NCBI GenBank assembly: GCA_035299225.1
Contig: DATGXB010000028.1
Coordinates: 1 to 61,151, forward strand
Direction of reading: 5' to 3'
DNA length: 61,151 bases
Origin: Nostocaceae cyanobacterium
GTDB taxonomy: Bacteria; Cyanobacteriota; Cyanobacteriia; Cyanobacteriales; Nostocaceae
Shown here: one piece after another, positions 981-14,801 of the stretch
Layout: each line of letters begins with the position of its first letter
Numbering within the stretch: position 1 is the first letter of the stretch
Notes under the pieces: generated by a model
Database searches by the model: none
Told to the model about the DNA's origin: nothing
Seen by the model: only the letters and a program-made list of their open reading frames with translations
Translations under genes and position numbers: made by a program

Positions 981-3317
981 TTATAAATTGAGACACAATT
1001 GGGAAGCGATCGCCTCTATGGTTGCTAGGGGTACGGTGGTAAAATACTGATGTTGAAATTGTTCTTCGCAGATGGCGGCTAAAAATTGGGAAATCGCTGT
1101 GTTAGCCAGGCTTTCGGGGCTGTTTGTGGGATGCCAAGTTATTTGTAGGTTACGGTCTTGACGTTGGACGGTAAACCCTAAGAGTTTTAAAGCTTTAAAG
1201 CCTAGTTGTAAACTTTGGGCACTAATACCCAATTTTTCTAATAGTTGTGCGCTAGTTACTGGCTTCTGAGTACGTCCCAGGTATTTAGCTACACCTACAA
1301 AAGTCAGCCACACTTGATCCGGTTCTAGGTCTTGGGGTTTTGACCAAGCGAGGGCTAATTGTTGCTGATTGTGAAGCGATCGCTTTAACCACCAGTGTAG
1401 ATCATCCCAACTTTTTGGACAATCTTTAATCATTAAAATGGCATTTTGGTCATTAAGTTTTGTGTATTGTGATGCAGGAAGATTACGCCAATCAAGAATT
1501 AAATTTGAGTGGACAGTGCTAAGTTGAGAATTACCACTAAGACGCACGGCAATTAAACGAATTTCATAACGTTTTTTAAAACTATTAAAATCAATTTCGG
1601 CGATACAATCACATTTACCGATAGGTAATTCATCTTTATAATGTCCCCACCAAATTCCAGGAAATCTACTTAAAGTAGAATCATCTCTAATGTCAAATTC
1701 GGTTTTAATATATTCTATTTTTTTGCCTTTAATATCTTCTGGTTTCCGATGCCAAGTATTCTCAAACCAGCAATTTTTAATCAGTAGTTTAGGAATAGGA
1801 TTTCCCATTCCACAAGGTTCTAATAATTTCAATTCTAAAAATAAATCTTTGCTTAAATCTGCAACTGTCACTACCAAATCAGCTTGGATAGTTGGTGTAA
1901 GGCTGATTCCACCTAAGTTCTGACGCAATTTTTGATTAATAGCATCGGTAAATAAAGGAATATTTCTTGCTAATAAACTTAATCCGGCTGCAAAAGGGTG
2001 TCCACCAAAACGATGTAATAAATGAGATTGTTCTTGGACTAATTGATATAAATCAACTGAATTAATAGAACGAGCCGAACCCCGTGCTAATAATTCAGCA
2101 TTATTAGTTGATGTTTCTGTACTTAATAAAATAGTTGGTCGTCCGGTTTCTTGGGCAACTTGCCCCGCAACTAAACCCAGCACACCCGCAGGCCATTGTG
2201 AGTCTTCTAGGACAATAACGCTAGTAGTTGATAAATCTAATTGTGCAATTTTTTGTGCTACTTGATTTTGGACATCTTTCTGTAAAGATTTGCGGCGGGA
2301 GTTGGCTAATTCTGTTTCTTCTGCTAATAAGTTGCAGCGTTGATGATTTCGACTGGTTAACAATTCGACACAAAAACTAGCATCACCATGAATCCTACTA
2401 ACTGCATTGATGCGCGGACCTAAACCAAAGGAAATATCTGTGGGGCGATCGCCATTTTTCTGGCATAATTCTAGTAAACGTCCTACACCTGGTCTTCTTC
2501 TTTCCGCAACAGGTTTTTTATAATCAGATTGTAACTGTTGGATTCCCAATTGTGCTAAATAGCGACAATCACCTTTTAATTGTACCAAATCGGCAATTAA
2601 ACCCACTGCCACTAAATCTAATAAATCTGTTAATGGGTGTTCAGGAACATCCGGTAAAGTTTGATATAAAGCCTCAACTAATTTATAAGCAACTGCGACA
2701 CCAGAGAGATGAAATAAAGGATGATCCTCTGATAAATAGCGGGGATTAATAATAGCTGTAACTGGTGGACGTTCTGCTGGTAAAGTATGATGGTCTGTAA
2801 CTATGATATCAATTCCTAACTCTTGAGCATAAATTATCTCACTAATATTAGTGCTACCGGTATCACAAGTAACGATTAATTCACAACCTTGTTTAGCTAA
2901 ACTTTCAATTCCCGCTTGATTGAGTCCATGAGATTCTGTTAAGCGATTCGGAATATAATAAATTAATTGTTGATGTTGCTCAAAAAATTCTCCTAAACCA
3001 TCCCATAACACCGCAGTAGAAGTAATTCCATCTGCATCAAAATCACCCCAAATCGCCACTTTTTCCCGGTCTATTCCCGCTTGCTGTAAACGTTTTACAG
3101 CCAAATACATTTCTGTTCCAAACTCAAACGGACTCGCAGGCTGATAATTTTTATAATCAACAAAAGCCGCTAATTGTTGTTGGTCTTTTATCCCCCGTTG
3201 CCAAAGTAATTGTGCTGCAAATATTCCCCCGTCCGGCGGTGCATACTCTTTTACAGCTTCAATAAACCACTGCGGTGGCTGTTGATTTGTGGTTAAAATC
3301 CATTGTTGTTCATTCAT
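981..3317 (-). CDS. recJ: single-stranded-DNA-specific exonuclease RecJ
   Basis: 778 aa. DHH motif (DFDADGITS), DHHA1-type C-terminal core, and a size typical of cyanobacterial RecJ. Confidence 0.88.
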   Translation of the reverse strand: MNEQQWILTTNQQPPQWFIEAVKEYAPPDGGIFAAQLLWQRGIKDQQQLAAFVDYKNYQPASPFEFGTEMYLAVKRLQQAGIDREKVAIWGDFDADGITSTAVLWDGLGEFFEQHQQLIYYIPNRLTESHGLNQAGIESLAKQGCELIVTCDTGSTNISEIIYAQELGIDIIVTDHHTLPAERPPVTAIINPRYLSEDHPLFHLSGVAVAYKLVEALYQTLPDVPEHPLTDLLDLVAVGLIADLVQLKGDCRYLAQLGIQQLQSDYKKPVAERRRPGVGRLLELCQKNGDRPTDISFGLGPRINAVSRIHGDASFCVELLTSRNHQRCNLLAEETELANSRRKSLQKDVQNQVAQKIAQLDLSTTSVIVLEDSQWPAGVLGLVAGQVAQETGRPTILLSTETSTNNAELLARGSARSINSVDLYQLVQEQSHLLHRFGGHPFAAGLSLLARNIPLFTDAINQKLRQNLGGISLTPTIQADLVVTVADLSKDLFLELKLLEPCGMGNPIPKLLIKNCWFENTWHRKPEDIKGKKIEYIKTEFDIRDDSTLSRFPGIWWGHYKDELPIGKCDCIAEIDFNSFKKRYEIRLIAVRLSGNSQLSTVHSNLILDWRNLPASQYTKLNDQNAILMIKDCPKSWDDLHWWLKRSLHNQQQLALAWSKPQDLEPDQVWLTFVGVAKYLGRTQKPVTSAQLLEKLGISAQSLQLGFKALKLLGFTVQRQDRNLQITWHPTNSPESLANTAISQFLAAICEEQFQHQYFTTVPLATIEAIASQLCLNL

Positions 3318-6179: not shown

Positions 6180-6202
6180 AGCCCGGAAATCAATTTCGGG
6201 CT
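6180..6202 (+). terminator. candidate stem-loop downstream of the flotillin-like gene
   Basis: AGCCCGGAAA-TCAA-TTTCGGGCT, a 9-bp stem with one bulge. It lacks a clear U-tract, so support is weak. Confidence 0.25.
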
Positions 6203-6278: not shown

Positions 6279-8009
6279 TTGTTAATTCAAAAACGTTATC
6301 GTTTACAAAAAATAATTGCTAAAGGTGGATTTTGTCAAACTTTTTTGGCAATTGATGAAGGTAAAAATCCGGCGGAAGGTTGTATTGTTCAACAATTATC
6401 ATCACCGTGCCAAACTTCTGTACAAAAATTACAAGATATTGCTCAATATCCCCAAATCCCTAATTTAATTAATTGTTTTTCTGAAAATGGTTATTTTTAT
6501 TTGGTGCAAGAATTTATCCCCGGTAATAATTTAAAAAGTTTTTTAGCCAAACAAGGCACATTTAACGAAGTTCAAATTTGGCAAGTGTTAAAAGGTTTAT
6601 TACCAATTATCAAATTTATTCACTCGCAGCAAATTATTCATCAAAATATTAAACCGGAAAATATCATTATTAAAAATGATAATTTAATTGCAGAAAATTT
6701 AGTTTTGGTGGATTTAGCGGCTGCTAAAAGTCTGACTATACAAGAATTTCAGGGAAATAATCTCATTATTGGTAGTCCAGAATATATTGCACCTGAACAA
6801 GTCAAAGGGAAACCAGTTTTTGCCAGTGATTTATATAGTTTAGGGGTAACTTGTATTTATTTACTAACTCAAGTTTCCCCTTTTGATTTATTTGATATTG
6901 TTAATAATAATTGGATTTGGCGGGAATTTTTACAAACAGAAGTTAGCGAACATTTAGCCCAAATTTTAGATAAGTTAATTGAAAATGATTTTACAAAACG
7001 CTGGCAGAGTGCTGATGAATTAATTAAATTTATGGGAATTAAAATCCCAAATCCAAAATCTAAAATTCAAAATTCAAAATGGGAATGTTTATATAGTTTT
7101 TCTGGTGATGTTCCTAATCTAAATATTATCAATACTTTAGCTATTAGTCCCAATGGTCAAATTTTGGTTAGTGGTGATAATGATAAAAGTATTAAATTAT
7201 GGAATTTAAAAACTCAGCAGTTATTAGCGAATATTCCCGCACATAATCAGCCTGTAACATCTGTAGCTTTTAGTCCTGATGGGCAAGTTTTCGCTAGTGC
7301 TAGTGATGATAAAACTATCAAATTATGGCAAGTTGATAATTTACAAGAAATTCGCATTTTTACGGGACATAATCATTTTGTGAAATCAATTAGTTTTAGT
7401 CCTGACGGCTTAATTTTAGCTAGTGGAAGTTGGGATAAAACTATTAAAATTTGGGATGTAAAAACAGGTGTAGAACTGTGTAATTTAGCTGGACACCAAT
7501 TAAAAGTTAATACTGTGGCTTTTAGTCCCCAAGGTAATATTTTAGCGAGTGGGAGTAGCGATCGCACAATTCGCCTCTGGCAGTTACAAAACTTCACAAA
7601 TCTAGAAGAGAAGAATCACCCATGCATGAGATTACAAGGAATCTTATCAGATCATACATGGGCAGTTTTAGCAGTTGCTTTTAGTCCCGATGGGCAAATT
7701 TTAGCCACTGGTAGCCATGATAACACTATTAAATTATGGGACGTAAATACTGGCCAGTTGATTAGTACACTTTTAGGCCATTCCTGGTCTGTGGTAGCCT
7801 TAGCCTTTACAGATGATGGTAAAAATTTGATTAGTGCCAGTTGGGATCAGACAATTAAAATTTGGCAACTCAGCGCAAAAACCGAAATAGCCACACTTTC
7901 CGGTCATACAGACTCAGTAAATACTATTGCTGTTAACCCTGTTGACCAGCTAATAATTAGTGGCAGCAGGGACAAAAGCATTAAAATATGGCAACCTGTA
8001 CAAATTTAG
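6279..8009 (+). CDS. WD40-repeat protein with N-terminal Ser/Thr-kinase-like domain (predicted pseudokinase)
   Basis: TTG start in the ORF track. The N-terminal ~260 aa aligns to Hanks kinases (glycine loop KGGFCQT, APE motif SPEYIAPE, DLYSLG). All three catalytic motifs are substituted: VAIK Lys to Gln (CIVQQL), HRD to HQN (IHQNIKPEN), DFG to DLA. The C-terminal half has seven WD40 repeats (WD/W-x-V motifs between 7090 and 8009). Confidence 0.8.
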   Translation: MLIQKRYRLQKIIAKGGFCQTFLAIDEGKNPAEGCIVQQLSSPCQTSVQKLQDIAQYPQIPNLINCFSENGYFYLVQEFIPGNNLKSFLAKQGTFNEVQIWQVLKGLLPIIKFIHSQQIIHQNIKPENIIIKNDNLIAENLVLVDLAAAKSLTIQEFQGNNLIIGSPEYIAPEQVKGKPVFASDLYSLGVTCIYLLTQVSPFDLFDIVNNNWIWREFLQTEVSEHLAQILDKLIENDFTKRWQSADELIKFMGIKIPNPKSKIQNSKWECLYSFSGDVPNLNIINTLAISPNGQILVSGDNDKSIKLWNLKTQQLLANIPAHNQPVTSVAFSPDGQVFASASDDKTIKLWQVDNLQEIRIFTGHNHFVKSISFSPDGLILASGSWDKTIKIWDVKTGVELCNLAGHQLKVNTVAFSPQGNILASGSSDRTIRLWQLQNFTNLEEKNHPCMRLQGILSDHTWAVLAVAFSPDGQILATGSHDNTIKLWDVNTGQLISTLLGHSWSVVALAFTDDGKNLISASWDQTIKIWQLSAKTEIATLSGHTDSVNTIAVNPVDQLIISGSRDKSIKIWQPVQI

Positions 8010-8132
8010 GGGAACGGGGAATAGTCATTAGGGAACAGGCAACAGGCAACAGGCAACAGTCATTAGTTATTCTTTTTGACTTTTGACTTTCTCCCCTGCC
8101 TTCTGTTTCCTGCCCCCTGCCTCCTGCCTTCT
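8008..8132. repeat. bipartite STR block: G-rich heptamers (GGGAACA/AGGCAAC) then TTTTGAC x2 then C-rich heptamers (CCTGCCN)
   Basis: Read directly. Lies between convergent genes. The C-rich array ends 3 nt before the stop of the minus-strand gene at 8136. Confidence 0.85.
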
Positions 8133-8135
8133 AAA

Positions 8136-8441
8136 TCAAGCGCTACCGGTGAAAGCAACTTCAGGAAACTTCAGTTGTGCTTCGGCCATGGGTCGGTTTC
8201 TGCCTTCCTCTTGCCAGTAGTTAATGACTTCGGTGGCCTTGTTGAGTAATTCTACCCGATCTAACTCGGTAATCCAGTGCTTAGATTCTAGCTCTTTCTT
8301 GAGTTCTTCCCAAGCATCATTTCTCGGCCAGAAAAAGTATTTAGTGAGTGGGCTAGTACCCTTACCTACAATTTGATCCACTGCTAGGGCTACGTTCTCA
8401 TCTAACCAGAGAATTTTCAAGATAAATTTGGACAATGGCAC
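8136..8441 (-). CDS. ycf65: PSRP-3/Ycf65-like ribosome-associated protein
   Basis: 101 aa. [51 protein letters not shown] closely matches the conserved core of plastid-specific ribosomal protein 3 (VWMEKNIGLGLDQ...PLSPYFFWPRKDAWEELK). Confidence 0.75.
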
Positions 8442-8638: not shown

Positions 8639-9415
8639 ATGAATGTATTTGTAGTTTTTGATATAGATGGTGTTATCCGTGATGTAGGCGGTTCTTATCG
8701 TCGCGCTTTAGCGGATACGGTGGAACATTTTACAAATCAAGGATACAGACCCACAGCAGAAGACATTGATCAATTAAAATCCGAAGGGTTATGGAATAAT
8801 GACTGGGAAGCGTCCCAAGAGTTGATTTACCGTTATTTTCAGGGTCAAGGTAAAACACGCCAAGAATTACAACTAGATTATCAGGCGATCGTTAATTATT
8901 TTCAATCTCGCTACAGAGGAACAGATCCAGTTAATTGGAATGGCTATATCTGCCATGAACCTTTATTAGTAAAATTAAGTTATTTTGAACAATTAACTCA
9001 AGCGGGGATTAGCTGGGGATTTTTTAGCGGTGCGACTCGTGCTTCTGCTATTTATATTTTAGAAAAACGTTTGGGTTTACAATCTCCTGTATTAATTGCG
9101 ATGGAAGATGCACCAGGAAAACCCGACCCCACAGGACTTTTTTCTACTGTTAATCTATTATCAAATCATAGTGAAACTAAATCACCAGTGATTTATATTG
9201 GTGACACAGTAGCAGATATGTACACTGTAGAAAAAGCCCGAAAATTAGATAGTTCTCGTCAATGGTTAGGAGTGGGAGTTTTACCACCCCATGTCCAACA
9301 AATAGTAAATCAACGTGATGCTTATGCAGAAAAATTAATTAATGCAGGTGCAGAATTAGTATTTACTAATGTGGAACATCTGAGTATAGATAAAATTAAA
9401 AACCTGATTCATTGA
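8639..9415 (+). CDS. HAD-superfamily hydrolase (subfamily IA-like)
   Basis: N-terminal motif I FVVFDIDGVIRD with Asp nucleophile. C-terminal motif GDTVADM. 258 aa. Confidence 0.7.
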   Translation: MNVFVVFDIDGVIRDVGGSYRRALADTVEHFTNQGYRPTAEDIDQLKSEGLWNNDWEASQELIYRYFQGQGKTRQELQLDYQAIVNYFQSRYRGTDPVNWNGYICHEPLLVKLSYFEQLTQAGISWGFFSGATRASAIYILEKRLGLQSPVLIAMEDAPGKPDPTGLFSTVNLLSNHSETKSPVIYIGDTVADMYTVEKARKLDSSRQWLGVGVLPPHVQQIVNQRDAYAEKLINAGAELVFTNVEHLSIDKIKNLIH

Positions 9416-9487
9416 TAGGGTAGTGCACCACGGCAAAAATAACTATTCATTTGAACCCTATCAAACATCAGTTAAATCAACTTTCTT

Positions 9488-9559
9488 ACCTCCTGCCTCC
9501 TGCCCCCTGCCTCCTGCCCCCTGCCTCCTGCCCCCTGCCCCCTGCCTCCTGCCTTCTTG
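9488..9559. repeat. C-rich heptamer STR array (CCTCCTGCC/CCCCTGCC x ~10)
   Basis: Read directly. It generates the spurious low-complexity ORF 9451-9672. Confidence 0.85.
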
Positions 9560-9870
9560 CACTAGATATTTTTGTTAAGATTTCTTTACAAATAGGTGAA
9601 TCTAGCGTTGCATTGCTTGCAAGTGATAGGTACTATAGAGAGTCACAGGGGCTTGATGCTGTGTTTACATAACTTTACAATCCAAGCCTTTTGGGGAAGC
9701 TATATTGCGTAAAGACTTTTTGGCGATGTTGCCTTGTATGGCGTAATTTGAGGCGATCGCACAATGGAAAAAAGACCAAAGTGCTTATTACATTCTTTAA
9801 AGTTATGTAGCCTTTTGATTACAGGCCATCAAGCACTGCGGTAAACTATGCCTTGATTATGATTTTTTGA

Positions 9871-10149
<279 letters not shown>

Positions 10150-10544: not shown

Positions 10545-13500
10545 TTGTTATTGGGGAGTGCTAATACTACCATGAACGATTTTGAAACTGAGACAATAGA
10601 ACTGCGTAACGAGTTAGCCAAGAAATACTTTGATTTATCACCACTAGGACGAAGAATTGTTCAATTATTCTCGGTAATTTACGAACCTATTAACAGAAAT
10701 TCGCTCTCCAGTTGTATTGCTTACATTGGTGAGTTAGATGAAAATAATAAACCTTTTGTTAGCAGAACCTTAAGTTATCAGGTTGATAAATTATTGTCAA
10801 TAGGCGTTTTAATTCAAGAAGGCGGAAAAAGTCCTCAATGTCATCCTTTACTGGCTGAGATTGCTACCCGTGATGCAGTCAAAGCGGGAAGGTTTGAATT
10901 ATTAGTTAAAGCATTGGAAGAAAAGATCCCTGTTAGTTATAGTTCGGCAACTGGACAAAAATATTTTAACGGCGATCGCCAATTTTTACGGGAATTTCGG
11001 ATCGGATTTTACCGTCACGACCTAGATTTTATTAATAAGCAGATTGAAGATTATTATAAAGGAGGTCGCAAAGACGAAAAACTATCAGTTAATGAAATGT
11101 TTATACGGGTGTGCAATAACCCATTTGATCCCGATTGGTTTCGCACACTACCACAAGAATTATATGATAACTGTATAACTAACATTCTCTTAGAAGCTGC
11201 CTTAAAATGCAATCTGGCAGATGAAGCTTTTGCCATGCTGCAAGAGGATTGTGCTGATAGTACAATCCATTCATCAGATTATCTACAATTAGTTTTAACC
11301 GAACAACTACTGTTGAGGGGTTGTATACAAGAAGCAGAAGACAATTTAAAGAATATTACAGAAGAATATCAAAATAATGCCCTGGTTTATGCAGGCTGGA
11401 TTAACTTTTTCAAGGGGAATATTCAACAGGCGATCGCCTATTACAACTTAGCACTCAAAACCCTGAAAAAAGGTAAAGGCAAGCGTCAGCTATACTTCAA
11501 TACTATAGGGGGCTTATTCTTTATCCTCGCACTGATCAAAGAAGGTTCACCCAATAGCCTGCAAACAGCTTTAGATTATACCAGTTCAGCCGCACGTCAA
11601 ACAGGACATTGGCTAAAACCCATTTATGTACAATTAAGTGTTTTATTGCGGATTCAATTAGGAGACATCACCCAAAAAGAATTTGTTCTTGATAAAAATA
11701 TCATTTTCCCCCAAGTCCACAACAGCCTAGAAACATTATTTTTTGCCCTTTGTCATTACTGGGTAGATGTTGACAGTGCAAAAAGCAACCTACCCAAAGT
11801 ATTAAGCCCATTCTATCAAAAAGCTGTAACATCAGGTTATCACTGGTTAGCGATGGAAAGCGCCGAACTCCTTTCCCGACTGATCCCAGATAGCACTTAT
11901 GATACACAAGCAGAAATCCTCCGGGAAGATATTGGCGTAGATAGTATAGTTGATTTAATTCAACCCCAGGAAGCTTGGGAACAATGTTTAAACGCTTTAG
12001 CTAACATCCAAAAAGAACCACAAACATCTGTAAAAGCTGAATCAGAACTGCGTTTAGGTTGGTTTATTACCTATTATTTTGGTTCATGCACCATCCAACC
12101 ACGAGAACAAAAGATTAACGCTCAAGGTGTTTGGAGTAAAGGCCGAGTTATAGCCCTCAAGCGGCTGAGTGAAGACCTAGCAGAATTTAGTTATTTAACT
12201 CCTCAAGATATCCGGGTTTGTGCTTATATTGAAACTTATAGCACGTATAATTACAGAAGTTACAGCAAAAGCGAGTATAGATTTAACGAAAAAGCCATAT
12301 CTGCATTAATTGGACATCCTTTAGTATTTTGGGAAGATTCACCCAATACCCGTGTAGAAATTGTTAAGGGAGAACTAGAACTGCTGGTAAAAAAAGGCAA
12401 AAAAGACCGATTAATTCTAGAATTATCCCCTAAATTTGAACCAATACAAAATTTACTCACCATCAAAGAAACCCCCACCAGATTAAAAGTCATTGAAATC
12501 ACCGCCGAACATCATCGGATTGCAGAAATTATTGGTAAAAATAATCGCTTAGAAGTTCCCATTGGCGCAAAAGAGCGAGTTTTGGCCGCTATTAATGCCA
12601 TATCTGGGTTAGTAACAGTACATTCGGATATTGGTGGAGGGTTAGAAGGTGCAATAGAAGTACCGGCTGACAGTAAACCTCATGTTCATTTATTACCTGC
12701 TGGTGATGGTTTAAAAGTTGCTGTATTAGTTCGTCCCTTTGCTGATGGCGGAAATTATTACCGTCCCGGTACAGGTGGAGAAACAGTAATTGCCGAAATT
12801 GACGGTAAAAGATTGCACACCACACGGGATTTACAGGCAGAAAAACAACAAGCGAAAGCAGTCATAGCAGCTTGTCCGACCTTCACCCAAGGGGAAGAAC
12901 AGGACGGAGAATGGTTAATAGAAGCACCAGAAGACTGTTTAGAACTGTTGCTAGAACTGGAAGCACTAGGAGAGACTGTAGTGCTGGAATGGCCAGAAGG
13001 GGAACAACTGCGAGTTAGTCACCAAGCAGGTTTTAGTAACTTTAGGTTAAGTATTCAACGTCAAAAAGATTGGTTTGCAGCTAGTGGTGAGTTGCAATTA
13101 GATGATGATTTGGTGTTGGATATGCAGCGTTTAATGGAACTGCTAGAAAAAACCCCCAGCAGATTTATACCTTTGGGTTCTGGTCAGTTCTTGGCTTTAA
13201 CGCAAGAATTTCGCAAACGCTTGGATGAGTTGCGGACATTTTCGGAAAAACACGGTAAAGGTGTACGTTTTCACCCCTTAGCGGCTTTCGCTTTAGAAGA
13301 TATGGTCGCGGAAGTGGAAAACTTGCAAGCGGATAAACACTGGAAAGAGCATATTCAACGGCTGAAAGAAATGCAAAATTTACAGCCAAAATTACCTTCT
13401 ACACTGCAAGCAGAATTAAGAGATTATCAAATAGATGGTTTTAACTGGTTAGCAAGGTTGGCTTATTGGGGTGTTGGCGCTTGCTTGGCTGATGATATGG

Positions 13501-14801
13501 GATTGGGGAAAACTTTACAAGCTTTAGCGGTGATTCTCACCCGTGCATCGGAAGGTGCTAGTTTAATTATTGCACCGACTTCTGTCTGTATGAACTGGGT
13601 GAGTGAAGCACAGAAATTTGCACCTACTTTAAATGTAATTCAGTTTGGGGGATTTAGTGGCAATGAACGCCAAACCGTTTTAGATAATTTACAGCCATTT
13701 GATATGCTGGTTTGCAGCTATGGTTTATTACAACAGGAAGAAGTAGCGCAGAAGTTAGCGCAGGTACAATGGCAAACCATCGTTTTAGATGAAGCCCAAG
13801 CGATTAAAAATGTTGCCACCAAACGGTCACAAGCGGCCATGAACTTACAAGGAGGTTTTAAAGTCCTGACTACAGGTACACCCATAGAAAACCATTTGGG
13901 TGAACTGTGGAATTTATTCCGCTTTATCAACCCTGGTTTACTTGGTTCATTAGAAAGCTTTAATCAGCGTTTTGCTAACCCGATTGAAAGATATCAGGAT
14001 AAACAAGCCAGAAATAAACTCAAAAAATTGATTCAACCCTTCCTGTTACGTCGTACCAAAAACCAAGTTTTAGAAGAGTTACCTTCTCGCACGGAAATAG
14101 TTTTACACGTCGAGTTAAGTCAGGAAGAGATTGCTTTGTATGAAGCACTGCGTCGGGAAGCCATAGCAAAACTGACTGATAGCGACACCCCAGCCGGTCA
14201 AAAGCATCTACAAGTGTTAGCGGAAATTATGAGATTACGTCGCGCTTGCTGTAATGCACGGTTAGTAATGCCTGATACGAATCTGAAAAGTGCGAAATTA
14301 CAGCTTTTTGGGGAAGTGCTGACGGAATTATTAGAGAACCGTCATAAGGCTTTGGTGTTTAGTCAGTTTGTAGACCATTTACAAATTATCAAGGAATATT
14401 TAGATAAGCAAAAAATATCTTATCAATATTTAGATGGTAGCACCCCCGCAGGAGAACGCAAAAAACGAGTAGATGCTTTCCAATCTGGTATAGGTGATGT
14501 ATTTTTAATCAGCCTCAAAGCCGGGGGTACGGGGTTAAATCTCACGGCTGCTGATTACGTGATTCATCTAGACCCCTGGTGGAATCCCGCAGTTGAAGAC
14601 CAGGCATCAGACCGTGCCCACCGCATCGGCCAAAAACGCCCAGTAACTATTTATAGACTGGTAGCGAAAAATACTATTGAGGAAAAAATAGTGGAATTGC
14701 ATCAACACAAGCGAGATTTAGCTGATAATCTTCTAGAGGGTGCGGATATGAGTGGTAAGATATCCACAAATGAGTTATTACAATTAATTAATGAGGGTTA
14801 A
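10545..14801 (+). CDS. SNF2-family (SWI2/SNF2) helicase with large N-terminal region
   Basis: The C-terminal ~550 aa hold SNF2_N (LRDYQIDGFNWLARL, DDMGLGKTLQ, DEAQAIKN) and HELICc (FLISLKAGGTGLNLTAADYVIHLDPWWNP, QASDRAHRIGQ) motifs. The likely true start is the ATG at 10572, in frame. Confidence 0.85.
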   Translation: MLLGSANTTMNDFETETIELRNELAKKYFDLSPLGRRIVQLFSVIYEPINRNSLSSCIAYIGELDENNKPFVSRTLSYQVDKLLSIGVLIQEGGKSPQCHPLLAEIATRDAVKAGRFELLVKALEEKIPVSYSSATGQKYFNGDRQFLREFRIGFYRHDLDFINKQIEDYYKGGRKDEKLSVNEMFIRVCNNPFDPDWFRTLPQELYDNCITNILLEAALKCNLADEAFAMLQEDCADSTIHSSDYLQLVLTEQLLLRGCIQEAEDNLKNITEEYQNNALVYAGWINFFKGNIQQAIAYYNLALKTLKKGKGKRQLYFNTIGGLFFILALIKEGSPNSLQTALDYTSSAARQTGHWLKPIYVQLSVLLRIQLGDITQKEFVLDKNIIFPQVHNSLETLFFALCHYWVDVDSAKSNLPKVLSPFYQKAVTSGYHWLAMESAELLSRLIPDSTYDTQAEILREDIGVDSIVDLIQPQEAWEQCLNALANIQKEPQTSVKAESELRLGWFITYYFGSCTIQPREQKINAQGVWSKGRVIALKRLSEDLAEFSYLTPQDIRVCAYIETYSTYNYRSYSKSEYRFNEKAISALIGHPLVFWEDSPNTRVEIVKGELELLVKKGKKDRLILELSPKFEPIQNLLTIKETPTRLKVIEITAEHHRIAEIIGKNNRLEVPIGAKERVLAAINAISGLVTVHSDIGGGLEGAIEVPADSKPHVHLLPAGDGLKVAVLVRPFADGGNYYRPGTGGETVIAEIDGKRLHTTRDLQAEKQQAKAVIAACPTFTQGEEQDGEWLIEAPEDCLELLLELEALGETVVLEWPEGEQLRVSHQAGFSNFRLSIQRQKDWFAASGELQLDDDLVLDMQRLMELLEKTPSRFIPLGSGQFLALTQEFRKRLDELRTFSEKHGKGVRFHPLAAFALEDMVAEVENLQADKHWKEHIQRLKEMQNLQPKLPSTLQAELRDYQIDGFNWLARLAYWGVGACLADDMGLGKTLQALAVILTRASEGASLIIAPTSVCMNWVSEAQKFAPTLNVIQFGGFSGNERQTVLDNLQPFDMLVCSYGLLQQEEVAQKLAQVQWQTIVLDEAQAIKNVATKRSQAAMNLQGGFKVLTTGTPIENHLGELWNLFRFINPGLLGSLESFNQRFANPIERYQDKQARNKLKKLIQPFLLRRTKNQVLEELPSRTEIVLHVELSQEEIALYEALRREAIAKLTDSDTPAGQKHLQVLAEIMRLRRACCNARLVMPDTNLKSAKLQLFGEVLTELLENRHKALVFSQFVDHLQIIKEYLDKQKISYQYLDGSTPAGERKKRVDAFQSGIGDVFLISLKAGGTGLNLTAADYVIHLDPWWNPAVEDQASDRAHRIGQKRPVTIYRLVAKNTIEEKIVELHQHKRDLADNLLEGADMSGKISTNELLQLINEG

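What the first reader, a model, noticed from the sequence alone, without database searches (positions are those of the whole stretch)
6279..8009. Kinase-WD40 protein in which all three catalytic motifs are coordinately substituted (predicted pseudokinase)
Cyanobacterial PkwA-type proteins normally keep VVKQL, HRDIKPDN and DFG. Here the corresponding positions read CIVQQL, HQNIKPEN and DLA, so the ATP-anchoring Lys, the catalytic Asp and the Mg-binding DFG are all lost. The substrate-binding APE motif, the DxWSLG motif and all seven WD40 blades remain intact. That pattern suggests a scaffold or decoy pseudokinase rather than a sequencing artefact.
Basis: partly seen in the sequence, partly recalled or inferred. 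Interest (0 to 1): 0.5.

Follow-up and report, generated by a model that had tools for sequence, protein, structure and literature searches.

The report
Dead kinase fused to WD40 propeller
This cyanobacterial gene encodes a kinase-shaped protein that has lost the residues needed to transfer phosphate but is still kept by selection; it belongs to a previously unnamed group of about 35 such "dead kinase plus WD40" genes in Nostoc-like cyanobacteria, which is a tidy but not surprising example of a known phenomenon.

Summary
ORF 6279-8009 (+), 576 aa, has a complete Hanks-type kinase fold, a flexible linker and a 7-bladed WD40 propeller. The beta3 Lys is Gln38 and the catalytic Asp is Asn123 (HQN). 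The alphaC Glu, third glycine-loop Gly, DFG Gly and activation-loop Thr are also gone. One correction: "DLA" keeps the metal-binding Asp145, and Asn128 and Lys125 are kept too.

It is not strain-specific decay. The gene belongs to a monophyletic clade of 35 sequences, nearly all next to PSRP-3 and often after a flotillin gene. None has the beta3 Lys or alphaC Glu.

The losses were stepwise, not coordinated:
- Lys/Glu went once at the clade base.
- HRD-Asp (11/35 Asn, at least 5 lineages) and DFG-Asp (7/35) went repeatedly afterwards.
- The window's D->N is private; a 92%-identical relative keeps HQD.

ORFs are mostly intact. Structural invariants are 35/35. dN/dS is about 0.2 at depth (C-lobe 0.08-0.23, WD40 0.19-0.35, catalytic/activation segment 0.5-0.74).

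Best reading: a selected, non-catalytic pseudokinase-WD40 adaptor with unknown partners. It is a new member of a known kind, of moderate-low interest.

The parts
6279..8009 (+). Whole gene: pseudokinase-WD40 protein, 576 aa, TTG start, stop included
   Evidence: identical copy on Logan contig L001
6279..7046 (+). Kinase-fold (pseudokinase) domain, aa 1-256
   Evidence: Pfam PF00069 103.6 bits. AF2 pLDDT 88.8, pTM 0.88. Foldseek probability 1.0 to active kinases including PknB 5u94.
6318..6335 (+). Degenerate glycine-rich loop A-K-G-G-F-C (canonical relatives G-Q-G-G-F-G)
6390..6392 (+). Gln38 in place of the beta3 (VAIK) Lys, codon CAA
   Evidence: Lys is present in 0 of 35 clade members.
6411..6440 (+). 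Shortened alphaC helix (aa 45-54). The alphaC Glu position is Ser47, and 13 aa are deleted before the helix relative to canonical relatives.
6639..6647 (+). H-Q-N in place of H-R-D. Catalytic Asp->Asn123 (AAT at 6645-6647).
   Evidence: The closest relative L008 has GAT.
6651..6662 (+). Retained catalytic-loop Lys125, Pro126 and Asn128
   Evidence: Asn128 35/35, Lys125 29/35
6711..6719 (+). D-L-A in place of D-F-G. Asp145 retained, Phe->Leu, Gly->Ala.
6756..6767 (+). Activation-loop positions 160-163 (G-N-N-L). Canonical relatives have the invariant G-T of T-G-T here, so the phospho-acceptor Thr is lost.
6789..6797 (+). Intact A-P-E motif
   Evidence: Glu173 35/35
6828..6845 (+). Intact D-L-Y-S-L-G (alphaF, subdomain IX)
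   Evidence: Asp184 and Gly189 35/35
7041..7080 (+). Flexible inter-domain linker (about aa 255-267), encoded by a heptanucleotide tandem repeat (AAAATCC x5.7)
   Evidence: pLDDT is below 50 at aa 258-265.
7080..7997 (+). Seven-bladed WD40 beta-propeller, aa 268-573, with a loop insertion between blades 4 and 5
   Evidence: 7 WD40 stretches, 275 bits. 28 strands with pLDDT mostly above 90.

Best explanation
The gene encodes a soluble two-domain protein. An N-terminal Hanks-type kinase fold that can no longer transfer phosphate is joined by a flexible linker to a 7-bladed WD40 propeller.

The kinase fold lacks:
- the beta3-Lys/alphaC-Glu pair that positions ATP;
- the catalytic base (Asp->Asn);
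- a canonical glycine-rich loop and the DFG glycine;
- the activation-loop Thr.

It is one member of an orthologous clade in Nostocales. The clade descends from an active kinase-WD40 gene at the same chromosomal position. It lost the Lys/Glu pair once. The other catalytic residues then drifted freely, while the C-lobe docking surface (P+1/APE, alphaF, alphaG) and the propeller stayed under purifying selection.

It most likely works without catalysis. The conserved C-lobe and the propeller would serve as two protein-binding modules. They could bridge or sequester partners of the ancestral kinase, or bind and regulate an active paralogous Ser/Thr kinase.

Shown: fold retention, loss of catalytic residues, clade-wide distribution, selection pattern.
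Inferred: absence of activity, binding function, partner identity.
For: Motif losses:
- Mapped against solved kinases and 111 Lys-bearing relatives.

Fold:
- AF2 model of the kinase domain has pLDDT 88.8 and pTM 0.88, with all kinase secondary-structure elements and a short alphaC.
- Foldseek TM scores are 0.65-0.76 to active kinases.
- The full-length model has pLDDT 88.1 but pTM 0.57 with a disordered linker. That indicates two independent domains.

Phylogeny:
- The Lys-less clade is monophyletic in 94 of 100 NJ bootstraps.
- It is nested in a grade of K-retaining positional orthologs.

Clade statistics, n=35:
- Lost or eroding: Lys 0/35, alphaC Glu 0/35, catalytic Asp 24/35, DFG Asp 28/35, DFG Gly 10/35, activation-loop Thr 7/35.
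- Invariant: His121, Asn128, APE-Glu173, Asp184, Gly189 and Arg241, all 35/35.
- Asp->Asn arose in at least 5 separate lineages.

Gene integrity:
- An unbiased DNA scan of metagenomes found 27 PSRP-3-linked loci: 25 full-length ORFs of 568-635 aa counted from the kinase-domain start, plus frameshifted L037. Two further clade loci lack a PSRP-3 hit: L029 (cut at its contig end) and truncated L022.

dN/dS:
- Kinase domain 0.20-0.25 and WD40 0.19-0.22 at dS 0.65-1.1.
- Regionally, the catalytic plus activation loops give 0.50-0.74. APE to the domain end gives 0.08-0.23. WD40 gives 0.19-0.35.
- Retention of canonical-invariant residues is 0.96 in P+1/APE-alphaF but 0.33 in the activation loop.
Against: - No biochemical data. 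Asp145, Asn128 and Lys125 are retained, so nucleotide or metal binding cannot be excluded.
- Most clade members gained a Lys at glycine-loop position 2 (Lys in 78% of 9 non-redundant clade members, versus Gln in 95% of canonical relatives). Its role is unknown.
- dN/dS between the two closest genomes is 0.39-0.45, higher than the neighbouring flotillin gene at 0.14.
- Several orthologs are frameshifted or truncated: L009, L012, L037, and Westiellopsis at 419 aa. The gene is therefore dispensable in some lineages.
- No partner or operon link was found.
Confidence: 0.72

Rival explanations
1. The gene is drifting toward pseudogenisation. The kinase lost function, nothing replaced it, and the intact ORF only reflects too little elapsed time.
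For: - The window's Asp->Asn is a private, very recent change.
- omega is 0.39-0.45 against the closest relative.
- Frameshifted or truncated orthologs exist: L009, L012, L011, L010, L037 and L022, and the Westiellopsis 419-aa form lacking three blades.
Against: - The Lys loss is ancient, with dS above 1 between subclades. Yet about 30 clade members keep full-length ORFs.
- omega is about 0.2 over deep comparisons, and 0.08-0.23 in the C-lobe.
- Six structural residues are invariant in 35/35.
- The broken copies first seen were a biased sample, because that protein search listed only hits under 500 aa.
Confidence: 0.1
2. It is still an enzyme or a nucleotide-dependent switch. It would bind ATP or another ligand non-canonically, as WNK, SelO or SidJ do with altered active sites, and use that for atypical catalysis or conformational signalling.
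For: - Asp145, Asn128 and Lys125 are retained in the window.
- His121 and Asn128 are 35/35 and Gly16 is 33/35 in the clade.
- A Lys was gained at glycine-loop position 2 in most members.
- The review PMC12599244 documents pseudokinases with new activities (SelO, SidJ).
Against: - Catalytic Asp and DFG Asp are lost repeatedly and independently inside the clade (11/35 and 7/35). That argues no chemistry depends on them.
- The catalytic/activation segment has the most relaxed omega.
- His121 and Asn128 also have purely structural roles in kinase folds (established knowledge).
- Glycine-loop position 2 normally faces solvent.
Confidence: 0.12
3. It is a sequencing or assembly artefact, or a chimeric MAG sequence.
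For: The Asn123 codon differs from the nearest relative by one base. The identical Logan contig (SRR5823601) may come from the same reads as the MAG.
Against: - Gln38 and DLA are identical in an independent assembly (SRR30502264, L008).
- The Lys loss is present in 34 other sequences.
- Asn at the catalytic position recurs in at least 4 other lineages.
- The reading frame is intact and synteny is conserved.
Confidence: 0.03
4. It is a single-gene anti-phage defence kinase of the PD-T4-6 type.
For: The best PADLOC match is PD-T4-6 model PDLC04062, at 278.7 bits over aa 2-265.
Against: - The match covers only the kinase domain. It reflects a cyanobacterial STK subfamily model; 20 of the 25 listed hits are PD-T4-6 models.
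- The gene sits in a conserved housekeeping neighbourhood: flotillin upstream (with atpB/atpE further upstream in relatives), then PSRP-3, HAD and psaC downstream. This is not a variable defence island.
- The catalytic residues are lost.
Confidence: 0.03

Closest known systems
Cyanobacterial kinase-WD40(7) proteins (class cbSTKII of Zhang et al. 2007, PMC2176072, e.g. Anabaena all0438, alr3119, all3169) and actinobacterial PkwA
   Same: Same architecture: an N-terminal Hanks kinase domain plus a C-terminal 7-repeat WD40. The nearest K-retaining relatives occupy the same chromosomal position (P0008, P0012, L035 fully canonical; L041 reads HGD).
   Different: Those proteins keep Lys, HRD, DFG and the activation-loop Thr. 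This clade has lost Lys and alphaC Glu in all members, and the window protein has also lost the catalytic Asp.
Described bacterial pseudokinase families ActPs1-3, GLW, CP1, DYD, DLHK (PMC12599244; bioRxiv 10.1101/2025.01.12.632604)
   Same: A Hanks-type fold with loss of the VAIK Lys and variable loss of HRD-Asp and DFG-Asp. Like CP1, it is partly cyanobacterial, cytosolic and heterogeneous in which motifs are degraded.
   Different: None of the seven families is described with a WD40 domain; the term does not occur in either paper. CP1 is defined by linkage to a COG3899 ATPase domain, which is absent here. This clade appears to be a sub-branch of a canonical cyanobacterial family whose relatives include GUN4-linked kinases. 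That may be the authors' Cyan2, but this is my inference.
Synechocystis SpkE (Slr1443)
   Same: A cyanobacterial STK homolog lacking the catalytic Asp and other conserved residues. It is reported to show no kinase activity (PMC2176072).
   Different: Different subfamily and organism. Orthology was not tested, and none is suggested by the searches.
Scaffolding pseudokinases EssB/YukC and the MviN pseudokinase domain (bacteria); Vps15/PIK3R4 (eukaryotes; the Vps15 comparison is from my own knowledge)
   Same: A kinase fold used as a non-catalytic interaction module. Vps15 likewise combines an N-terminal degenerate kinase domain with a C-terminal WD40 propeller in a scaffold protein.
   Different: There is no homology beyond the shared folds. 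Those proteins have known partners and membrane or complex contexts. No partner is known here.

Membership tests
Hanks-type (eukaryotic-like) protein kinase fold, Pfam PF00069 | Sequence match above the curated threshold across both lobes | tested here: met
   103.6 bits against a cutoff of 31.7, profile positions 4-254 of 263
Hanks-type (eukaryotic-like) protein kinase fold, Pfam PF00069 | Bilobal kinase three-dimensional fold | tested here: met
   AF2 pLDDT 88.8, pTM 0.88. Foldseek probability 1.0, TM 0.65-0.76 to solved kinases.
Catalytically competent Ser/Thr protein kinase | beta3 (VAIK) Lys paired with the alphaC Glu | tested here: not met
   Gln38 and Ser47, with a deletion before alphaC
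Catalytically competent Ser/Thr protein kinase | HRD catalytic Asp | tested here: not met
   Asn123, codon AAT
Catalytically competent Ser/Thr protein kinase | DFG metal-binding Asp and catalytic-loop Asn | tested here: met
   Asp145 and Asn128 are retained. Phe->Leu and Gly->Ala flank the Asp.
Catalytically competent Ser/Thr protein kinase | Phosphotransfer activity | not testable with these tools
   Requires an in vitro kinase assay
Pseudokinase (kinase fold lacking at least one of VAIK-Lys, HRD-Asp, DFG-Asp; definition used in PMC12599244 and the bSTK atlas) | At least one triad residue missing in an otherwise intact kinase fold | tested here: met
   Two of three are missing and the fold is intact
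Pseudokinase (kinase fold lacking at least one of VAIK-Lys, HRD-Asp, DFG-Asp; definition used in PMC12599244 and the bSTK atlas) | Evolutionary conservation of the degraded state, as opposed to a one-off mutation | tested here: met
   35-member monophyletic clade with 0/35 Lys. omega is about 0.2.
CP1 pseudokinase family (cyanobacteria/proteobacteria) | Physical linkage to a COG3899 ATPase domain, often with GAF/PAS (PMC12599244) | tested here: not met
   The only domains found are Pkinase and WD40
Seven-bladed WD40 beta-propeller | Seven WD40 repeats forming 28 strands | tested here: met
   7 Pfam stretches, 275 bits. 28 strands over aa 268-573 at high pLDDT.
PD-T4-6 anti-phage kinase | Match to a PADLOC PD-T4-6 model | tested here: met
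   PDLC04062 at 278.7 bits, kinase domain only
PD-T4-6 anti-phage kinase | Defence-island context and a functional kinase | tested here: not met
   Conserved housekeeping synteny across Nostocales. Catalytic residues are lost.

The most novel reading that the evidence does not exclude
The clade could be a ligand-responsive switch or adaptor rather than an inert scaffold. The remodelled pocket has Gln at beta3, a Lys at the alphaC Glu position in 23/35 members, a new glycine-loop Lys, and invariant His121 and Asn128. Such a pocket might bind a nucleotide or metabolite, or lock alphaC in place, and so control what the WD40 propeller and C-lobe recruit. The often-adjacent flotillin (SPFH) membrane-scaffold protein is one possible recruit. 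More broadly, WD40-linked cyanobacterial kinases may be systematically predisposed to become pseudokinases: 8/33 versus 2/85 among the nearest 50%-identity representatives, Fisher p = 5e-4.
Probability: 0.12. Interest if true: 0.6.

Novelty: new member of a known kind. Interest (0 to 1): 0.35.

Why it matters
Bacterial pseudokinases are catalogued but almost unstudied experimentally. This clade offers a natural time series. There was one ancient loss of the Lys/Glu pair. Repeated, independent losses of the other catalytic residues followed, in otherwise well-conserved orthologs at a fixed chromosomal position. K-retaining positional orthologs are available as controls, and the gene is present in the culturable strain Chlorogloeopsis fritschii PCC 6912.

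That makes the clade a convenient system for two questions. What does a kinase fold do once catalysis is gone? And why do WD40-linked kinases appear to lose catalysis more often than others?

For annotation, the current product name 'serine/threonine-protein kinase' is probably wrong for this gene and its orthologs.

Tried and rejected
1. The word-indexed protein search returned only hits under 500 aa. It did not return the query's own cluster, although that cluster is in the collection. The clade members it gave were mostly gene fragments or frameshifted halves. This at first suggested widespread pseudogenisation. DNA-level scans of genomes and metagenomes then showed that full-length intact genes are the rule, so I dropped that reading.

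2. Operon or functional link to neighbours. A flotillin gene lies upstream in many loci, but not all (11 of the metagenome loci). In Chlorogloeopsis PCC 6912 it is separated by an IS-like TnpB ORF. In Chlorogloeopsis ULAP02 a different gene takes its place. PSRP-3 is convergent on the other strand. The consensus scan found no terminator and no convincing promoter. No functional link could be supported.

3. WNK-like compensation by a glycine-loop Lys. The basic residue after the third glycine is ancestral in canonical relatives and is Gln in the window. The clade-specific Lys15 is at loop position 2, which normally points to solvent. I rejected this as compensation but noted it.

4. Fixed docking of the propeller on the kinase domain. 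The full-length AF2 pTM is only 0.57, with a disordered linker, so there is no support.

5. PD-T4-6 defence assignment. Rejected on genomic context.

6. No other kinase or WD40 gene lies in the 61-kb window, so no nearby active partner kinase exists.

7. A first Biopython distance run timed out. It was redone with my own distance matrix.
Full report
**What is there**

Window 6279-8009 (+) is a single ORF of 576 aa with a TTG start. It is deposited as HLP87471.1, 'serine/threonine-protein kinase', from a Nostocaceae metagenome-assembled genome. The contig is exactly the 61,151-bp window.

Pfam finds a protein kinase domain at 103.6 bits over aa 10-245, covering profile positions 4-254 of 263. 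It also finds seven WD40 repeats. The homologs begin at the same M-L-[IL]-x-x-R-Y-R-L, so the TTG start is credible.

**Checking the motifs**

I aligned the domain to solved kinases and to 125 relatives.
- CIVQQ sits on C-V-I-K-Q, so the beta3 Lys is Gln38.
- IIHQNIKPEN sits on I-H-R-D-I-K-P-E-N, giving Arg122->Gln and Asp123->Asn.
- VDLAAAK sits on V-D-F-G-A-A-K.

Among the 126 aligned sequences, 111 have Lys, 116 have HRD and 113 have DFG. Every exception belongs to the group described below.

The metal-binding Asp of DFG (Asp145) is retained, as are Asn128 and Lys125 of the catalytic loop. By the usual K/D/D triad, two of three residues are lost.

- The alphaC Glu is lost, with a 13-residue deletion before alphaC.
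- The third glycine of the glycine-rich loop is changed (AKGGFC instead of GQGGFG).
- The DFG glycine is changed.
- The G-T of the activation loop, 100% conserved in canonical relatives and the expected phospho-acceptor, is N-L here.

APE, D-L-Y-S-L-G and the subdomain XI Arg are intact. The propeller has seven blades.

**Fold**

An AlphaFold2 model of aa 1-269 built on a 54-sequence alignment is confident (pLDDT 88.8, pTM 0.88). It has every kinase secondary-structure element, with a short alphaC at residues 45-54. Foldseek matches active kinases at probability 1.0 and TM 0.65-0.76, including M. tuberculosis PknB.

The full-length model is confident within each domain (pLDDT 88.1, 28 strands = 7 blades). 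Its pTM is only 0.57, and the linker at 258-265 is below pLDDT 50. So there are two independent modules on a flexible tether, with no predicted fixed docking.

**Is it strain-specific decay?**

No. Genome and metagenome DNA scans, analysed, recover a set of genes at the same chromosomal position. Each lies immediately upstream of the convergent PSRP-3/ycf65 gene. A flotillin (SPFH/Band 7) gene often lies upstream, and in some relatives atpB/atpE lie further upstream.

Thirty-five of these sequences lack the beta3 Lys. They include Chlorogloeopsis fritschii PCC 6912, Chlorogloeopsis sp. ULAP02, cyanobacterium PCC 7702, Westiellopsis prolifica, Nostoc edaphicum and several Nostocaceae MAGs.

This Lys-less group is monophyletic in 94 of 100 NJ bootstraps. 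In a larger tree it nests inside a grade of K-retaining positional orthologs. P0008, P0012 and L035 keep HRD and DFG as well, whereas L041, L042 and L030 have already changed the HRD Arg (and L030 the DFG Asp).

Within the clade:

| Residue | Retained | Notes |
|---|---|---|
| beta3 Lys | 0/35 | Gln 29, Tyr 3, His, Thr, Glu |
| alphaC Glu | 0/35 | Lys in 23 |
| Catalytic Asp | 24/35 | Asn in 11 |
| DFG Asp | 28/35 | |
| DFG Gly | 10/35 | |
| Activation-loop Thr | 7/35 | |
| His121, Asn128, APE Glu173, Asp184, Gly189, Arg241 | 35/35 each | fold-stabilising residues |

On the tree, Asp->Asn at the catalytic position appears in at least five separate lineages. DFG Asp->Asn appears in several lineages as well.

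The window's own Asp->Asn is private. Its 92%-identical relative (Logan contig L008 from SRR30502264) has the same CAA (Gln38) and GAT-TTA-GCG (DLA) codons, but GAT (Asp) where the window has AAT.

The substitutions are therefore sequential rather than coordinated:
1. Lys, Glu, and the glycine-loop and activation-loop changes came early.
2. HRD-Arg and DFG-Gly changes came next.
3. Catalytic Asp loss came last, and repeatedly.

**Selection**

Nei-Gojobori estimates:

| Comparison | Kinase-fold domain | WD40 | dS |
|---|---|---|---|
| Deep pairs: window-L006 / L002-L004 | 0.25 / 0.20 | 0.22 / 0.19 | 0.65-1.1 |
| Closest pair: window-L008 | 0.39 | 0.45 | 0.04-0.10 |
| Flotillin gene, window-L008 | 0.14 (whole gene) | | |

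By region, in the three non-saturated pairs:
- The catalytic-loop to activation-loop segment (aa 118-165) has omega 0.50-0.74.
- The APE-alphaF-alphaG part (166-256) has omega 0.08-0.23.
- WD40 has omega 0.19-0.35.

Retention of residues that are at least 90% conserved in canonical relatives is 0.96 in P+1/APE-alphaF and 0.90 from alphaG onward. It is 0.71 in the N-lobe and 0.33 in the activation loop.

This is the pattern expected when catalysis is no longer selected but the fold, the C-lobe surface and the propeller still are. The regional values rest on 48-93 codons and are noisy, but they agree across pairs.

**A caveat that was resolved**

The word-indexed protein search listed only proteins shorter than 500 aa and omitted the query's own cluster. 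Its clade members were fragments or halves of frameshifted genes. That suggested rampant pseudogenisation.

The metagenome DNA scan does not depend on gene calls. It found 27 PSRP-3-linked loci. Of these, 25 are single ORFs of 568-635 aa measured from the kinase-domain start. L037 is frameshifted. Two further clade loci have no PSRP-3 hit: L029 is cut at a contig end and L022 is truncated.

Some lineages have nevertheless lost or damaged the gene: L009, L012, L037, and a Westiellopsis form of 419 aa lacking three blades. The function is therefore dispensable in places.

**How common is this?**

An exhaustive HMMER search of 1.84 billion representatives allowed a survey of the nearest 150 clusters. 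Among single-domain proteins, 8 of 33 WD40-linked kinases are degenerate at K, D or D. Only 2 of 85 without WD40 are (Fisher p = 5e-4, or 0.002 after removing one likely alignment artefact).

Independent Lys-less kinase-WD40 representatives exist outside this clade: P0224, P0233, P0253, P0241 and P0256. Tandem multi-kinase proteins carry many degenerate domains too. Degenerate kinase domains are therefore frequent in this cyanobacterial family, which lowers the novelty of any single case.

**Literature**

Zhang et al. 2007 surveyed cyanobacterial STKs (PMC2176072). WD40(7) is a common accessory domain. Lys is 96% conserved and the catalytic Asp 97%. Five STKs lack the Asp, and one of them, SpkE, showed no activity.

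The bacterial STK atlas and its companion review define 42 families, of which seven are pseudokinase or pseudokinase-rich: ActPs1-3, GLW, CP1, DYD and DLHK (bioRxiv 10.1101/2025.01.12.632604; PMC12599244). 'WD40' does not occur in either text. CP1, the partly cyanobacterial family, is defined by a COG3899 ATPase domain that is absent here.

I found no description of this clade. It looks like a sub-branch of a canonical cyanobacterial family whose relatives include GUN4-linked kinases.

**Most likely mechanism**

The protein is most likely a non-catalytic adaptor. Its conserved C-lobe (the substrate-docking side of a kinase) and its seven-bladed propeller are two interaction modules on a flexible tether. 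It may bind, bridge or sequester partners inherited from the ancestral active kinase-WD40. Alternatively it may bind and modulate an active paralogous kinase.

The loss of catalytic residues, the fold and the selection pattern are shown. Inactivity and the binding role are inferred. The partner is unknown.

Neighbouring genes give no reliable clue:
- Flotillin is adjacent in many loci but not all.
- PSRP-3 is convergent on the other strand.
- No other kinase or WD40 gene lies in the window.

**Rivals**

- Slow decay (about 0.10).
- A residual nucleotide-dependent or atypical activity (about 0.12). Asp145, Asn128 and Lys125 are kept here, and most clade members gained a Lys at glycine-loop position 2.
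- Artefact (about 0.03). Only the single-base Asn123 call could be affected.
- A PD-T4-6-type defence kinase (about 0.03). The PADLOC hit is a generic kinase-domain match in a housekeeping neighbourhood.

**Verdict**

This is a new, well-delimited member of a known kind (bacterial Hanks-type pseudokinases). It is useful as a natural series of stepwise active-site erosion and as an annotation correction, but it would not surprise a specialist.

Noticed in passing
window 7041-7080 (inside the gene); also 8030-8059, 8095-8132, 9489-9554: Heptanucleotide tandem repeats of the STRR type typical of heterocystous cyanobacteria. One, (AAAATCC)x5.7, lies inside the coding sequence and encodes the flexible kinase-WD40 linker (K-I-P-N-P-K-S-K-I-Q-N-S-K). 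Slippage by one or two units would shift the frame. The 9489-9554 array (CCTCCTG x9.4) underlies the spurious 73-aa ORF 9451-9672 upstream of psaC.
   Followed up: partly
window 10545-14801 (+): A 1418-aa SNF2-family helicase (Pfam SNF2-rel_dom plus Helicase_C). It has very strong PADLOC matches to DpdE (661.7 bits) and ZorD. It could be a Dpd/Zorya-like defence component or a generic cyanobacterial SNF2 protein. The neighbours were not examined.
   Followed up: no
window 6180-6202: An imperfect inverted repeat (AGCCCGGAAAT...ATTTCGGGCT) lies 14 nt after the flotillin stop codon, in the 112-nt gap before the pseudokinase gene. No T-run follows, so the terminator scan did not report it.
   Followed up: partly
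L002 4562-5761 (-), Chlorogloeopsis fritschii PCC 6912: A 399-aa ORF lies between the flotillin gene and the pseudokinase ortholog. I take it to be an IS200/IS605-type TnpB/OrfB-like protein from its sequence features (zinc-finger-like C-terminus). This shows the two genes need not be co-transcribed.
   Followed up: no
representative proteins P0187-P0331: Degenerate kinase domains are significantly enriched among WD40-linked single-domain kinases (8/33 versus 2/85, Fisher p = 5e-4). They are also common in tandem multi-kinase proteins; for example, P0187 has three degenerate domains.
   Followed up: partly
L013 6001-7260 (Westiellopsis prolifica IICB1); L009, L012, L011, L010, L037: The Westiellopsis ortholog is an in-frame 419-aa form that keeps only four WD40 blades. 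Several metagenomic orthologs are frameshifted within the WD40 region, including two that still have canonical K/HRD/DFG. Loss of this gene recurs in some lineages regardless of motif state.
   Followed up: partly
tool behaviour: the search for homologous proteins did not list the query's own cluster representative (P0121) or any full-length (over 500 aa) ortholog, although these are in the collection. Its hit list was biased toward fragments.
   Followed up: yes
window 981-3317 (-), 8136-8441 (-), 8639-9415 (+), 9904-10149 (+): Neighbouring genes are a RecJ-like DHH/DHHA1 exonuclease, PSRP-3/Ycf65, a TIGR01548-type HAD hydrolase and psaC. This is an ordinary housekeeping context, conserved across Nostocales.
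   Followed up: partly
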